Source: the human T2T-CHM13v2.0 reference genome, Homo sapiens
Direction: 5' to 3' (one strand)
Assembly: GCF_009914755.1 (NCBI RefSeq)
Contig: NC_060926.1
DNA length: 64,000 bases
Shown: positions 22,519-42,239 of the stretch, in pieces
How the letters are laid out: each line of letters starts with the position of its first letter
Numbering within the stretch: position 1 is the stretch's first letter
Translations under genes and position numbers: made by a program
The notes under the pieces: generated by a model
What the model was told of the DNA's origin: nothing
Databases searched by the model: none
Seen by the model: only the letters and a program-made list of their open reading frames with translations

Positions 22519-22541
22519 AATAAAGAAATCTTAACAATAAA
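22519..22541 (+). terminator. Tandem poly(A) signals AATAAA (22519-22524, 22536-22541)
   Basis: Two canonical hexamers, upstream TGTA elements, downstream T/GT-rich sequence. Confidence 0.85.
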
Positions 22542-22633
22542 CTCAGAATCTACTTACTCCACTTAGTTTTGAATCTGCTTGAAGAAATTGACAACAAAAG
22601 GAAATGGAGTTTGTCCTGCAAGCCTAGTCTTTG

Positions 22634-23294
22634 TGTTACTGGTGGAGGGTGTCCAGGTTCTTGGCGTTTTGAACAAAGAATTGGACAAAACACAAAAAGC
22701 AAGGAAAGAATGAAGCAACAAAAGCAGAGATTTATTGAAAACGAAAGTACATTCCACAGAGTAGGAGCCCAGGAGCACTGGGGCACAAGAGCTCCCGTTA
22801 CAGAACTTTCTGGGGTTTAAATACCCTCTAGGGATTTACCATTGGTTAGTTGGTGTACACCCTGTGTAAATTAATTAGTGGCCTGCAATCAGTGTGATTG
22901 GTTGCAGAAAGCAACCCATCAGGCTGAAGTGAAGTTACAAAGGTTAAACCCTATGCAAGTGTCGTTGTGGAAAACAACCAGTCAGAGGCCGAAGTTACAA
23001 AGGTTACACCCTATGCAAGCATCTCATTGGTTGTGGAAAGCAACCAATCAGAGGCTGAAGTGAAGTTACAAAGTTACACTCCTATGCCAATGTCTGGTTG
23101 CAGAAAGCAGCCAATCAGAGATGCTTTCAATTTTCCGTCTGCCATGCAGAAAAGGGAAGAGGGTGCTTGCAAACGGAGTATTCCAGTCCTTTTGTTACTT
23201 AGATGTAGAAAGTTGGGGTTTTCCTTTTGATTTAGTTCTAGAAAGTCAGTGTGAATCGGCCTTAGGTTCCCTGCCTCCAGACTATTCTGCCTCA
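22634..23294 (-). mobile_element. ERV1 solo LTR, MER51-like
   Basis: TG...CA ends; repeated ccaatcagaggctgaagtgaagttacaaag units; minus-strand TATA-like box (~22815-22827) and AATAAA (22731-22736). Confidence 0.8.
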
Positions 23295-23449
23295 CCTGGC
23301 CTAGCAGTGTCGCTTTCTGTTCATTCTGTTCATTCTCTTCCTGGTTGTTTAACCACTGGAGAATCCGTAACTTAAGGTAAACCCACAGTTCATTTCAGCC
23401 AATACTGGGCAAGCAGCATTCCCCTTCTTTCTTCTGATAGGGCACTAAA

Positions 23450-24650
23450 GGAAGTCCTGCCCTCTTCCATTTGCGATTGGCTGAATTTGTGGGTGGGCAG
23501 GGCTCTCCGCTGCCAGTGCCTCCGTGCTCCGAGGGACCACAGGTCCACTACGTGAGGGGAGGCTTCCCTCCCACAGGAACTCACACCTGTGGGCAGGAAG
23601 CCGGGAGGCCCGCCCCCTGCCTGGGTTCCTGCAGGGGAAGGCGAGGGTGGCTGGATAGAGCGTGCCCTGAGAGGTGGTTGGGCAGGAGGCTGGGCTGGTG
23701 GCCAGCTGCGCAGGGAGACCGGGAGGAGGCAGATCTGCGGGGCGCCCAGTCACTTCCTCCACGTTCTCGTGCTGGGCGGGAGGAGCGGATGGGGCTTGGG
23801 AGGCAGCCTGCTCTCCAGTCCCTATCCACCCACAGGTTTTTTGGGTCGGAGAGGAATTATCTGATAAAATTCCTGGGTTAATATTTTTAAAAACGGAGAG
23901 TTTTTAAAAATGATTTTTTTCCCTCGAAAATGACCTTTTTATGCTTCGAAGCAGTTTGTCACCAGCATAGTGCTTTTTCTTTTCTCTTCTTTTTCTACGA
24001 TAAATGAAAGCATTTCTTCAAGAAAAAGGCACAGGTTCCTTGAACAGGTAAGAAGAGCGCCCCACTTGTTCTCCCGCCTTCTGCGTGAGCAGCCCCTACG
24101 GGGTCTCCTACTGGTCCCTAGGAACTTTCGCCACACCCGGAGCGGCGGCCTCCCCGAGCCCCTCGGGGCCCCTTCCCTGGCAGCTGGGATGAGGGCAGCG
24201 TGCTCCTCGCAGGTTACTTGGTCCTGAGGTCCTCCCTCAGGCGCTGGGCATGCCTGGGGCGCAGAACCGCAGCTCTGGGCCAGACCCGGCTGAGACTGTG
24301 CTTGTGCAGCGAGTGGAGGCCGCTCCCGGGGCCCTGCCGCCCTCTCGCTCGCTCGGGGCTCTGGAGTCTGGCGGGCCGCAAGCCGCGCTGCCCGCTCTAC
24401 CTGGCTTTGTCCATCCAGCCACCCACCAAGCGCCAGGGTAAAACAGCACCCGGAAGCAGTCGTCGCCTGCTGCCACCAGGCTGCCTTCTGTGGTGAAGGT
24501 GGGGGCCAGGGTTGCAAGGCCCTCCTCTTGTTGGCATCAGCCAGGCACGCAGTGCTGTCGTGGCTGACCCAGGCCGTGAGGCACCCGCTGACTGAGAAGC
24601 CAACCTGAGCACCCAGCCGCACCTACCGCTGGCCTCAGACATCAGCACCC
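23450..24650. promoter_or_regulatory. GC/CpG-rich promoter-like region
   Basis: High GC and retained CpGs; ATTGG box at 23476, GC boxes (ccgccc ~23611, gggcggg ~23774), ETS-like GGAA cores. Confidence 0.65.
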
Positions 24651-25195
24651 CAAAGGGTATGTTGGAGTCCCATGGTGGAGGTGCCGGCCGCTCCTCCACG
24701 CACTTGATGTATACCGAGGATCCCATGCTTGACGTCGCAGGGGGCATTAGCCAGGAGCACGTTGCTGGGATGCCAGTCCAGGCTGAGGATGGTGGAGCCA
24801 ATGGGCTTCTTGATGTACTTGCACACCCACCAGTTATTCTCCCGCTGGAAATAACAGATGGCGATGACACACAGCTGCCGCCCACAGCAAACTTGTCCTG
24901 TGGGCCCAGCACACACAGCAGGCAGTGGGTGCGGGCTTACCCTCCTGGCCCGTCAGCGTCCACACAGAGGCCTTGTGGCCTGTGCCATAGGTCACGATGA
25001 GGTTACTCTTGGAGGCCCAGTTGATGCCTTTTACCTGCCCGTTGTGCTCCTTGAGCTCGGGCACCTTGGCCCACTTGGCCCCACTCTTACAGCTTCGTGG
25101 TTGTTGAGGCAGATGGTGGCCATCTGGGTGCGGCCCTTGCTCCAGGTTTGGCAGCAATGGGTTCCTGCAGTCAGCTGTGGGAGGCTGTAGTTGCT
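23914..25195 (-). pseudogene. Processed pseudogene of ARPC1B (Arp2/3 p41 subunit, WD40)
   Basis: Intronless, frameshifted fragments [80 protein letters not shown], plus ARPC1B-like 3'UTR. Confidence 0.9.
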
Positions 25196-25666
25196 CTCCT
25201 TTTCAGAGTACCCCAGCTGCAGACTCTGGGCAGGACGCACCCAACCAGTGCTCTGGTTTTTTGAAGTAAAAAATGCATAATGCAATTTTACCATCTTAAC
25301 CATTTTTTAATTATGAAATCCGGTAGTGTTAAGTATAATTGTGTTGTTGTGAAACAGATCTCCACAACTTTTTCATTTTGCAAAACTAAATAACTCCTCT
25401 TTCCCCCTACTCCCAAGCTCCAGGCAGCTACCATTTCTGTTTCTATGAATTTGACTACTTATATTACCTCATATAAAGGGGTTCATAAGTATTTGTCTTT
25501 TCTTGCTTGGTTACATCACTTAGCATGATTTCTTAAGTTTCATTCATGTTGTAGCACATGTCAAGATTTCCTTTTTTTTTTTTAAAAAAAAGGATGAAGA
25601 CTATTCGTTTGTATGTATATGCCACATTTTGTTTATCCATCCATTTTTCTTCAAATGTTTGAGTTG

Positions 25667-38596: not shown

Positions 38597-40644
38597 CAAA
38601 TGACATTTATTTTTAAAAGCAACTAAATCAGGAAAGACCTTCACTCATTCAATCAAAAAACATGCATTGAACACGTATTCTTGGCTAGATCCGGTGCTGC
38701 AAAGATGAAAGACGCCACTCCTAGCCTCAAGGAGCTTGCAGTTTAGTGGTGGCACTGGATGTAAAATAATCATAAGATGTGAGGTGAAGACTGATGAGGT
38801 CTATTTTGTTGACACAGGTAAACATTCTCAGAGAATATTTAATTAGCAACATGACCAAAATTAGTTGATTTATTTGAAGGATATTTAAGTGAATTTAGAG
38901 ATGAGATTTGTTTTTACTTTTTTAATTTCAGAGAGTTATGTTGGTTGCAAAAATCTTTGTTTTCCAGTATCTATTTTATAAGCCATCTGAGACCAGGATG
39001 TTTTCTTTTTAACATGTAAACTTGATGCAGTCTCTTTGTAAAGTAATGAATCCCCCCGTGAACCTCAAGGAGAAGAAAGTTTAGCTTGAACACTTAATTT
39101 CAAGTACCTTGAGAAGGGAACAGGCTGTATTGCTCAGAGAAGAAGGCTCTATTAGCTAAGGTAGAAGGACAATGTAAAACTCTTGTGAAGACACCTAAAT
39201 GTCATTCCACTCAAAGCCCATTATTAATAATTTGAAACTCTCTGCTCTGTGAAGGCAACGACCTATCTTTACTCATTTTTGACTCTGCTAACATTTCTTT
39301 TTATAGTTGAACCAGAGGCAAGGCAAGGAACTTGACATGCTTGTTTTCCCTTTAGAATAAAGTGGCCAGAAGCAGTTTCTTCTGTGTGATCCAACACTTT
39401 CTTATCCCCAGAGCAACTCTGCATAGTCTAGATGTACCAGAGCCCAGCAGCCTGTGAGGTGATGTGATGTGATGTGATGTGAACAGAAAGGCTCCATGTT
39501 GGATGATGCCTATGAATCTAATCAGATTCTCTTTCTTGGTCATTTTGATTTCCAGAGAAGGCAGTAGAAGCAGGTTCTGTGTGTATAACCAGAGACTAGA
39601 GGGAGGAACTGACAGGGAAGCTGGGTCATGAGAGTGGTGTGCTCAGCAGAGTAGGGAGTAAGAGAGAGCTGGCTCCAGAGAGGATGACAAAATGCCCATG
39701 TCTCCAGCACTTCTTTAGCATTCTGAGTTCCCATCCTATCATGAATAGGAAGAGTTTTCTAGCTCTCCATGAAGCCGAAATAGGTTTCAGACTTTCCTTT
39801 CTTTCCCACACACATAATAAATACCCATCAGGTAACCTGGGCATGGCCTTTTATTTAGGCACTAACAATTCTAAAAGGAATTAATAAATGCTTCACTGCC
39901 ATTTCACAGTGTAACAGCATGCCAGTTTACCATACCATTAACATTTAGCCTCGTGGTATTTCTGTGTTTTTTCAGTCAGTAATGATGGCATTTTTGCCAA
40001 GATAATATAGTGTTAAACTGTATTGGTTGAAATCCTAGGCTTTTTAAATGTAAACTAGCACTTTACAAAGTATTACAAAGGAAACGAACCAGGGAAACTT
40101 GAGAAGGAACTTTCTTATCCACATTGTTATAGGTTATAAAATAGTTCCTATTTAAATTAAAATACCTACTGTTGCACTTTTATGTGTGTTTTTATATATA
40201 AATAACATCTGGGTTGGCAAATATGTGATTTTCGTCAAATAGGCTTTGATTGAAGATGAAATATTTTTGTAAAACTAGTCCTTTTTTAAAGTTAAAATTT
40301 TATGTTACCACATGAATTGATCAGCAGAAATTTATTTACATTATGTAAATTGATTTTTAAGAGTATCCACAAGGTTTTAGCTATTATTTTTGAACTTGCT
40401 TCCTAGCCCACACAATTAAGTAATAAGAGTAAGAAAAAAGAAAGCACACATCCAAATCATCTATCAAAACCCAGCTTCTACCCAATGACACATCATTTTA
40501 TTTCTTGATCTTGTAATGTTGAGCACATGCCTTGGACATATTCCTATATGTGGGCTCTATTCTCTGCAGCACGTCACTCCCTCTTTTATCCGCCCCTCTT
40601 ATGTGCTCCCACTCCTATCCTCTTCAATTAAAAATGCCTCTTTC

Positions 40645-42197
40645 TTTTTTTTTTAAGTTAATTAATTAATTAATTTTTTTTTATTGATCATTCTTGGGTG
40701 TTTCTCGCAGAGGGGGATTTGGCAGGGTCATAGGATAATAGTGGAGGGAAGGTCAGCAGATAAACAAGTGAACAAAGGTCTCTGGTTTTCCTAGGCAGAG
40801 GACCCTGCGGGCTTCCACAGTATTTGTGTCCCTGGGTACTTGAGATTAGGGAGTGGTGATGACTCTTAACGAGTCTGCTGCCTTCAAGCATCTGTTTAAC
40901 AAAGCACATCTTGCATGGCCCTTAATCCATTTAACCCTGAGTGGACACAGCACATGTTTCAGAGAGCACAGGGTTGGGGGTAAGGTCATAGATCAACAGC
41001 ATCCTAAGGCACAGGAATTTTTCTTAGTACAGAACAAAATGAAGTCTCCCATGTCTACTTCTTTCTACACAGACACAGCAACAATCTGATTTCTCTATCC
41101 TTTCCCCACCTTTCCCCCTTTCCTATTCCACAAAAACCGCCATCGTCATCATGGCCCGTTCTCAATGAGCTGTTGGGTACACCTCCCAGACGGGGTGGTG
41201 GCCGGGCAGAGGGGCTCCTCACTTCCCAGAAGGGGCAGCCGGGCAGAGGCGCCCCCCACCTCCCGGACGGGGCGGCGGCTGGGTGGAGGCGGACCCCCAC
41301 CTCCCTCCCAGACGGGGCGGCTGGCCGGGTGGGGGCTGACCCCCCACCTGCCTCTGGGACGGGGCGGCTGGCCGGGCGGGGGCTGACCCCCCACCTGCCT
41401 CCAGGACAGGGTGGCTGCTGGGCAGAGGGGCTCCTCACTTCTCAGACGGGGCAGCTGCTGGGCGGAGGGGCTCCTCACTTCTCAGACGGGGTGGCCGGGC
41501 AGAGACGCTCCTCACCTCCCAGACGGGGTCACGGCTGGGCAGAGGCGCTCCTCACATCCCAGACAGGGCGGCGGGGCAGAGGCGCTTCCCGCATCTCAGA
41601 CGATGGGCGGCCGGGCAGAGACGCTCCTCACTTCCTAGACGGGATGGTGGCCGGGAAGAGGCGCTCCTCACTTCCCAGACTGGGCAGCCAGGCAGAGGGG
41701 CTCCTCACATCCCAGACGATGGGCGGCCAGGCAGAGACGCTCCTCACTTCCCAGACGGGGTGGCGGCCAGGCAGAGGCTGCAATCTCGGCACTTTGGGAG
41801 GCCAAGGCAGGCTGCTGGGAGGTGGAGGTTGTAGCTAGCCGAGATCACGCCACTGCACTCCAGCCTGGGCAACATTGAGCACTGAGTGAACCAGACTCCG
41901 TCTGCAATCCCGGCACCTCGGGAGGCCGAGGCTGGCGGATCACTCGCGGTTACGAGCTGGAGACCAGCCCGGCCAACACAGCGAAACCCTGTCTCCACCA
42001 AAAAAATACGAAAACCAGTCAGGCGTGGCGGCGCGCGCATGCAATCGCAGGCACTCGGCAGGCTGAGGCAGGAGAATCAGGCAGGGAGGTTGCAGTGAGC
42101 CGAGATGGCAGCAGTACAGTCCAGCTTTGGCTCGGCATCAGAGGGATACCATGGAAAGAGAGGGAGAGGGAGACTGTGGGGAGAGGGAGAGGGAGAG
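40645..42197 (-). mobile_element. SVA retrotransposon (poly-A, SINE-R, GC-rich VNTR, Alu-like domain, short CCCTCT hexamer region)
   Basis: All SVA domains in order; perfect 15-bp TSD aaaaatgcctctttc at 40630-40644 and 42198-42212. Confidence 0.97.
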
Positions 42198-42239
42198 AAA
42201 AATGCCTCTTTCAATATGTAAGGTAAGATTGATAGATGA

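What the first reader, a model, noticed from the sequence alone, without database searches (positions are those of the whole stretch)
23400..24650. Composite new promoter/first exon built from an antisense ARPC1B retrocopy directly behind the PIKFYVE poly(A) site
Seen: about 0.9 kb after the PIKFYVE poly(A) signals there is a GC-rich segment with ATTGG, GC-box and ETS-like motifs. It runs into the 3' end of an ARPC1B retrocopy that appears CpG-rich by eye, unlike the surrounding decayed repeats. The antisense of the retrocopy's 3'UTR (ttcttacctgttc) forms a near-consensus + strand donor, CAG|GTAAGA, at 24047/24048. Established: CpGs decay in methylated pseudogenes, so retention suggests a germline-unmethylated island. 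Recollection, to be verified: the next + strand gene is PTH2R, with a distal non-coding first exon near the PIKFYVE end. Inference: a retrocopy supplied both the CpG island and the splice donor of a lineage-specific alternative promoter, making most of 24-64 kb intronic.
Basis: partly seen in the sequence, partly recalled or inferred. Interest (0 to 1): 0.72.

Follow-up and report, generated by a model that had tools for sequence, protein, structure and literature searches.

The report
Retrocopy-derived splice donor for PTH2R
A dead, backwards copy of the ARPC1B gene supplies the splice site that ends an already annotated far-upstream first exon of PTH2R, and the part of the copy next to that site likely became GC- and CpG-rich after it landed, which makes this a tidy example of a known process rather than a new one.

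Summary
Mostly real, but already annotated and of a known kind. The ARPC1B retrocopy is full length (23945-25256, minus strand), longer than the annotated ARPC1BP1. The donor CAG|GTAAGA at 24047/8 is the antisense of its 3'UTR (parent TAG|GTAAGA) and ends the RefSeq alternative PTH2R exon 23502-24047. Corrections: the start site, the GC-box/ETS-like motifs and 19 of 54 island CpGs lie in unique host DNA, not in the retrocopy. The island is not simply retained: only 6 of 26 CpGs in 23945-24411 are shared with the parent. That segment shows A/T-to-G/C excess (58 of 72 vs 56 of 129, permutation p about 0.005; polarised sites 15/43 vs 2/30) and almost no CpG decay, while three ARPC1A retrocopies are balanced. 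Likely cause: low germline methylation plus GC-biased gene conversion downstream of a start site. The copy is old (about 0.14 substitutions per site), so 'lineage-specific' is untested. Spliced to exon 2, the first open in-frame AUG is Met112 behind 13 AUGs, with no signal peptide. Closest precedent: RB1/PPP1R26P1. No CAGE, methylome or orthologue data could be tested.

The parts
22519..22556 (+). PIKFYVE poly(A) signals (AATAAA at 22519 and 22536) and annotated 3' end
   Evidence: supplied annotation
22634..23294 (.). Solitary LTR-like interspersed repeat with TG...CA ends and 7 CCAAT boxes, CpG-depleted (o/e 0.26). Family name MER51 and minus orientation are recalled, from no call.
   Evidence: 66 non-self matches, some being pieces of one copy; CCAAT 7 vs 1.7 expected; pairwise distance 0.10-0.16 to five copies
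23295..23900 (+). Unique host segment with the annotated start (23502), GC-box-like and ETS-like motifs and 19 CpGs (23470-23900); likely the promoter core
   Evidence: no match to the parent's 3' flank
23502..24047 (+). Annotated alternative first exon of PTH2R, 546 nt, five AUGs. The last 103 nt are firmly retrocopy-derived; about 45 more are a weak match.
   Evidence: supplied annotation
24004..24006 (+). Upstream AUG already present in the antisense of the parent 3'UTR; out of frame with exon 2 (23-codon uORF across the junction)
24045..24053 (+). 5' splice site CAG|GTAAGA from the antisense of the ARPC1B 3'UTR (parent TAG|GTAAGA)
23945..25256 (-). Full-length processed ARPC1B retrocopy (5'UTR to 3'UTR), frameshifted, with several deletions; ARPC1BP1 is annotated only over 24519-25179
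23984..24411 (.). Segment of the retrocopy with A/T-to-G/C excess and almost no CpG decay; core of the CpG island

Best explanation
An old antisense ARPC1B retrocopy supplies the splice donor that ends an annotated far-upstream first exon of PTH2R whose start site lies in neighbouring host DNA, and the 430 bases of the copy around that donor likely became a CpG island in place, through low germline methylation and GC-biased gene conversion just downstream of the start site. Shown: retrocopy extent, donor origin, start site outside the copy, local A/T-to-G/C excess and local lack of CpG decay. Inferred: that the host segment is an active promoter; that the germline is hypomethylated there; that the bias is gene conversion at a promoter-type recombination hotspot; and that the RNA, if spliced to exon 2, gives little or only signal-peptide-less receptor (first open in-frame AUG is Met112). 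Its likely role is a minor isoform, or none.
For: Donor aligned to the parent antisense, 8 of 9 positions identical. Start site and motifs in single-copy DNA. Best-segment scan: W-to-S differences 58 of 72 in 23984-24411 vs 56 of 129 outside; 0 of 200 permutations reach it. At non-degenerate, non-CpG coding sites in codons identical between the human and a second mammalian ARPC1B chain, changes are likely on the copy's branch. Proximal W>S 15/43, S>W 2/30; distal 23/190 and 14/154. The contrast holds in six alignments (p 0.0001-0.006 with 2-column gap padding). Parent CpGs: proximal kept 6, deaminated 1, other 8; distal 11, 28, 14 (Fisher p 0.006). Three ARPC1A retrocopies are balanced, 30/1051 vs 30/842. 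Ancestral gBGC centred just downstream of human start sites is reported in PMC13712754 (abstract and one section), and at hypomethylated PRDM9-independent hotspots in PMC11161765 (abstract).
Against: Restricted to codons identical in ARPC1A and ARPC1B, the whole-copy bias is not significant (27/188 vs 16/150, p 0.33). The proximal counts are small, fall in an indel-rich stretch, and weaken with 4-column padding (8/29 vs 21/174; p 0.001-0.055). The boundary 24411 was picked from the same data, so only the permutation test is corrected for it. The 3'UTR differences (34 vs 9) cannot be polarised. The controls are much younger copies (0.03-0.05 divergence) of a different parent. The biased segment is 480-910 bp from the start, further than the -150 to +350 window of PMC13712754. 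The distal part also keeps more CpGs than a crude clock predicts (11 of 39 vs 9%), so the contrast is graded. A blood probe that I place tentatively at 23311 is 82% methylated. No expression or germline methylation data were available.
Confidence: 0.6

Rival explanations
1. Plain retention: the copy arrived CpG-rich, stayed unmethylated and kept its CpGs, while the parent's methylated 3' end lost them. No gain in place is needed.
For: 6 of 7 kept-or-deaminated parent CpGs are kept proximally. 11 of 26 proximal CpGs face TG/CA in the parent, as parental decay would give. Parent exon 8 is itself CpG-rich, 25 per 200 bp. RB1/PPP1R26P1 is explained this way (PMC3839921, passages).
Against: The W>S excess at protein-constrained non-CpG sites (15/43 vs 2/30) cannot be parental decay. 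7 of 26 proximal CpGs face other dinucleotides. There is no difference between whole halves (p 0.78).
Confidence: 0.15
2. There is no independent promoter: the exon is the tail of PIKFYVE read-through RNA that finds a strong donor, and the annotated start is a truncated cDNA end.
For: Same strand, only 946 bp behind the PIKFYVE end; a consensus donor is enough for such splicing (general knowledge); the RNA has poor coding sense.
Against: GC-rich, motif-enriched unique DNA sits exactly at the annotated start. Read-through would favour methylation and CpG loss (general knowledge), the opposite.
Confidence: 0.1
3. The upstream LTR, through its CCAAT array, drives or switched on the start site, so promoter activity is younger than the retrocopy.
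For: 7 CCAAT boxes vs 1.7 expected; the element ends 208 bp before the start; it is younger than the retrocopy (0.10-0.16 over two branches vs 0.125 on one).
Against: The LTR is CpG-depleted (o/e 0.26) and shows no consistent W/S asymmetry in five pairwise comparisons. The start and GC/ETS motifs lie outside it.
Confidence: 0.08
4. The G/C gain reflects selection for a CpG-island promoter, or a local mutation bias, rather than gene conversion.
For: The pattern does not by itself separate these forces.
Against: Proximal divergence is raised (0.29 vs 0.125), mostly in intronic bases, which fits conversion better than purifying selection. PMC13712754 (section read) finds no ongoing selection for G/C near start sites.
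Confidence: 0.07

Closest known systems
RB1 / PPP1R26P1 (Kanber et al. 2013, PMC3839921; passages seen)
   Same: Antisense retrocopy whose CpG island contains an alternative start exon spliced into the host gene; copies elsewhere lost their CpGs.
   Different: There the start lies inside the retrocopy, the island is attributed to inheritance from the parent, and it is imprinted. Here the start is in host DNA, most CpGs are not shared with the parent, the copy lies upstream of the main promoter, and no imprint listing was found.
Antisense retrocopy exon acquisition, type Ib of Baertsch et al. 2008, e.g. RPL18/CSMD3, EIF3S6/C6orf148 (PMC2584115, one section and passages; Kubiak et al. 2020, PMC7290577, one section)
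   Same: An antisense retrocopy gives splice signals to an alternative 5' exon and changes the N-terminus; Kubiak counts 47 opposite-strand cases.
   Different: Here only the last 100-150 nt and the donor are retro-derived, from 3'UTR, and no coding residues are added. PTH2R and ARPC1B were not found in either text or in the supplements held (the Kubiak file is stored cut before the exon table).
Ancestral start-site-associated gBGC and PRDM9-independent hotspots (PMC13712754; PMC11161765)
   Same: A/T-to-G/C fixation bias downstream of a hypomethylated start site.
   Different: Those are genome-wide averages. Here one locus has a built-in reference, the parent's protein-constrained codons, so the gain can be read directly.

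Membership tests
Processed retrocopy | Colinear match to spliced parent mRNA without introns | tested here: met
   All ten ARPC1B exons colinear
Processed retrocopy | Poly(A) tail and target-site duplication | tested here: inconclusive
   Only a weak A-rich tail match near 23900 (shuffle P 0.07) and an L1-like TTC/AAAAAA at the 5' junction; no clean duplication seen by eye
Processed retrocopy | Parent is ARPC1B, not ARPC1A | tested here: met
   Higher exon identity to ARPC1B; 3'UTR match unique
Antisense retrocopy exon acquisition (Baertsch type Ib) | Host splice site lies in the antisense retrocopy and is not a parent splice site | tested here: met
   Donor in the antisense of exon 10 3'UTR; annotated exon end 24047
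Antisense retrocopy exon acquisition (Baertsch type Ib) | Spliced transcript evidence | not testable with these tools
   Only the supplied annotation row; curated or predicted status is not given
Antisense retrocopy exon acquisition (Baertsch type Ib) | Retro-derived coding residues | tested here: not met
   No exon-1 AUG stays open in frame into exon 2
RB1-type retrocopy promoter | Start site inside the retrocopy's CpG island | tested here: not met
   Start 23502 is in unique DNA about 400-440 bp outside
RB1-type retrocopy promoter | Parent-of-origin methylation | tested here: inconclusive
   No gene-name or coordinate-prefix hit in supplements of PMC5106035 (15 files) and PMC9255983 (18 files); PMC4889973 supplements not readable
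CpG island (Gardiner-Garden) | At least 200 bp, GC over 50%, o/e over 0.6 | tested here: met
   Passing windows at 23696-23927 and within 23947-24520; 23660-24470 o/e 0.63
CpG island (Gardiner-Garden) | Unmethylated in germline | not testable with these tools
   Inferred only from lack of CpG decay
gBGC tract | Polarised W>S excess at non-CpG sites with raised divergence | tested here: met
   15/43 vs 2/30; divergence 0.29 vs 0.125; small counts, and one stricter whole-copy subset is not significant
gBGC tract | Branch-specific episode, link to recombination, skewed allele frequencies | not testable with these tools
   No other mammalian genomes or polymorphism data held

The most novel reading that the evidence does not exclude
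The insertion itself created the promoter. The preformed antisense donor stabilised transcription from inert DNA behind PIKFYVE; germline activity removed methylation and drew promoter-type recombination; gene conversion then built a CpG island out of a 3'UTR. The locus would be a datable record of a CpG-island promoter being born, with the parent mRNA as reference.
Probability: 0.2. Interest if true: 0.65.

Novelty: new member of a known kind. Interest (0 to 1): 0.36.

Why it matters
How CpG-island promoters arise is open: inheritance, selection or gene conversion. A retrocopy beside a start site offers polarised sites for free, and here they point to gain in place over about 430 bp; the same test could be run on all retrocopies near promoters. 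For PTH2R, RNA from this exon would be counted as PTH2R expression while likely encoding no normal receptor, which matters for reading PTH2R expression studies. The exon itself is already annotated and the class is known, so the surprise is modest.

Tried and rejected
Half-versus-half CpG retention: no difference; rejected as the sole explanation. Unique segment as a repeat or as 3' read-through of the parent: no second genomic match, flank alignment at shuffle level, score 31 vs mean 30. Other ARPC1B copies to polarise the donor's -3 base: none; the chr19, chr5 and chr4 hits are ARPC1A copies, so whether T or C is ancestral stays open. Dating by residues that differ between human and the second mammalian chain: of 12 listed sites two are deleted in the copy, one was mis-indexed (110 for 109, corrected), and the rest lean human-like, but ancestral states are unknown, so this was not used. 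LTR W/S asymmetry: none. Literature: ten searches listed no paper describing this exon or its retrocopy origin; one search showed 30 of 371 papers, and the one listed with ARPC1BP1 (PMC12519442) was not opened. Grothaus et al. 2016 on retrocopy CpG islands was not held and may list this locus; I saw only a citing passage. Mouse and sheep papers gave no distal-exon information. PMC5932608 and PMC4621369 passages added nothing locus-specific. Earlier scan findings were not available.

Full report
Observation. The window is human chr2 (supplied annotation). PIKFYVE ends at 22556 after AATAAA at 22519 and 22536. A search of the whole genome with 23850-25260 found the ARPC1B exons on chr7, and one translated stretch matched ARPC1B best among solved structures. 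I rebuilt the parent mRNA from its exons in a script (372 codons) and aligned it. The copy is colinear from the 5'UTR at 25256 to the 3'UTR at 23945, with 82%, 79% and 77% identity in the 5' coding, 3' coding and UTR parts, and with frameshifts and deletions up to 32 nt. The annotated pseudogene covers only 24519-25179. The 3' end near 23900 is a weak match (P 0.07). The parent's last exon matches nothing else in the genome.

The donor. CAG|GTAAGA at 24047/8 is the only such 9-mer on the + strand of the window; the looser MAG|GTRAG occurs 8 times. The parent's antisense strand reads TAG|GTAAGA at the same columns. The donor was therefore essentially preformed in the ARPC1B 3'UTR and differs at -3 only; the direction of that change is unknown. 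The annotation ends a PTH2R exon at exactly 24047. The canonical PTH2R exon 1 ends in the same 9-mer at 70908, which I take as coincidence.

What is not retrocopy. 23290-23950 has only its self-match and does not match the parent's 3' flank. It holds the annotated start (23502), 5 loose GC boxes (1.5 expected) and 3 ETS-like sites (0.7 expected); CCAAT and strict GC boxes are at chance, and these P values are uncorrected. Of 54 CpGs in 23470-24520, 19 are in this host segment, 3 in the retro part of the exon, 28 in 24048-24411 and 4 beyond. Upstream lies a 661-bp LTR-like repeat (22634-23294) with 7 CCAAT boxes, CpG o/e 0.26 and 0.10-0.16 distance to five other copies; its family name, MER51, is recalled.

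Retention or gain. CpG o/e is 0.66 in 23940-24470 and 0.36 in 24471-25190. Parent CpGs survive equally over the two halves (8 of 27 vs 9 of 35, p 0.78), and 0 of 11 aligned 3'UTR CpGs of the copy are CpG in the parent. A scan for the best segment found 23984-24411, where 58 of 72 weak/strong differences have G/C in the copy, against 56 of 129 outside; none of 200 permutations reached this. Up to 24411, parent CpGs are kept 6, deaminated 1, otherwise changed 8; beyond it 11, 28 and 14. Of 26 CpGs of the copy in 23945-24411, 6 are shared, 11 face TG/CA, 7 face other dinucleotides and 2 face gaps.

Polarising the differences. I used non-degenerate, non-CpG sites in codons identical between the human chain and a second mammalian chain (recalled as bovine; residues 23-165, 168-235, 262-329, 331-360 only). 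Proximal: W>S 15/43, S>W 2/30, divergence 0.29. Distal: 23/190, 14/154, divergence about 0.125 (one search excluded codon 110 by mistake for 109, and one search corrects this with one count changed). Six alignments agree; with wider gap padding the counts halve and p rises to 0.001-0.055. Three ARPC1A retrocopies are balanced, 30/1051 vs 30/842.

Results against this reading. Using only codons shared by ARPC1A and ARPC1B, the whole-copy bias is 27/188 vs 16/150 (p 0.33). The controls are young. The UTR cannot be polarised. The distal part also keeps more CpG than a crude clock from the controls predicts (11 of 39 vs 9%).

Age. Distal K2P distance on the copy's own branch is about 0.14. With recalled neutral rates that is roughly 60-100 million years, likely before the simian radiation and older than the LTR. 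No other mammalian genome is held, so 'lineage-specific' and the order of promoter and insertion are untested.

Product. Exon 2 begins at window-equivalent 91989, a 67.9-kb intron. Joined to exons 2-5, the distal exon places 13 AUGs (5 in exon 1, 8 downstream) before the first open in-frame one, Met112 of the canonical protein. The N-terminal 25 residues of canonical exon 1 (the signal-peptide region, by general knowledge) and most of the extracellular domain would be missing. That the exon splices straight to exon 2 is assumed from the absence of other annotated exons in the window.

Mechanism. Shown: donor from the copy, start outside it, local G/C gain and local CpG protection. Inferred: an active host promoter keeps the flank unmethylated in the germline, and promoter-type recombination fixed G/C there. 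This matches ancestral gBGC just downstream of start sites (PMC13712754, abstract and one section) and PRDM9-independent hotspots that track hypomethylation (PMC11161765, abstract). The only methylation value found is probe cg00281776, 0.817 in blood (PMC4286273, table rows; a SNP lies in the probe). I place it at 23311, upstream of the island, using recalled coordinates.

Comparison. It works like RB1/PPP1R26P1 (PMC3839921, passages) but fails that type's feature of a start inside the copy, and the locus was not found in two imprinted-DMR supplement sets. It fits antisense exon acquisition (PMC2584115; PMC7290577), without coding contribution. Neither paper names it in the text or in the supplements held; one supplement is cut, and Grothaus 2016 could not be read. 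Verdict: real, already annotated exon, new member of a known kind, with one useful addition, the readable G/C gain. Interest 0.36.

Noticed in passing
window 40645-42197: The other CpG-rich block of the window looks like an SVA on the minus strand (T-rich tail, GC-rich tandem repeats, hexamer end) with a 15-bp target duplication at 40630-40644 and 42198-42212; the RefSeq enhancer 40602-41402 overlaps it. Family name recalled.
   Followed up: partly
window 22634-23294: An LTR-like solo element inserted 78 bp after the PIKFYVE end, with 7 CCAAT boxes and no clean target duplication; it is not among the longest masked stretches listed.
   Followed up: partly
L029 (window-equivalent 70201-71200): The canonical PTH2R promoter is a stronger CpG island (up to 25 CpG per 200 bp), and its exon 1 donor has the same 9-mer as the distal exon.
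   Followed up: partly
L013 (C7:100631400-100632200): ARPC1B has an intragenic CpG-rich stretch over exon 8 and intron 8 (18-25 CpG per 200 bp).
   Followed up: no
L014, L015, L016: Three ARPC1A retrocopies on chr19, chr5 and chr4, 2.6-4.7% diverged at constrained sites, with about half their CpGs deaminated; the chr4 copy is interrupted by Alu-like insertions.
   Followed up: partly
window 24004-24047: The retro-derived AUG ends the exon in phase 2, as does the junction before PTH2R exon 6, so a skip to exon 6 would be in frame. There is no evidence that such a splice occurs.
   Followed up: no
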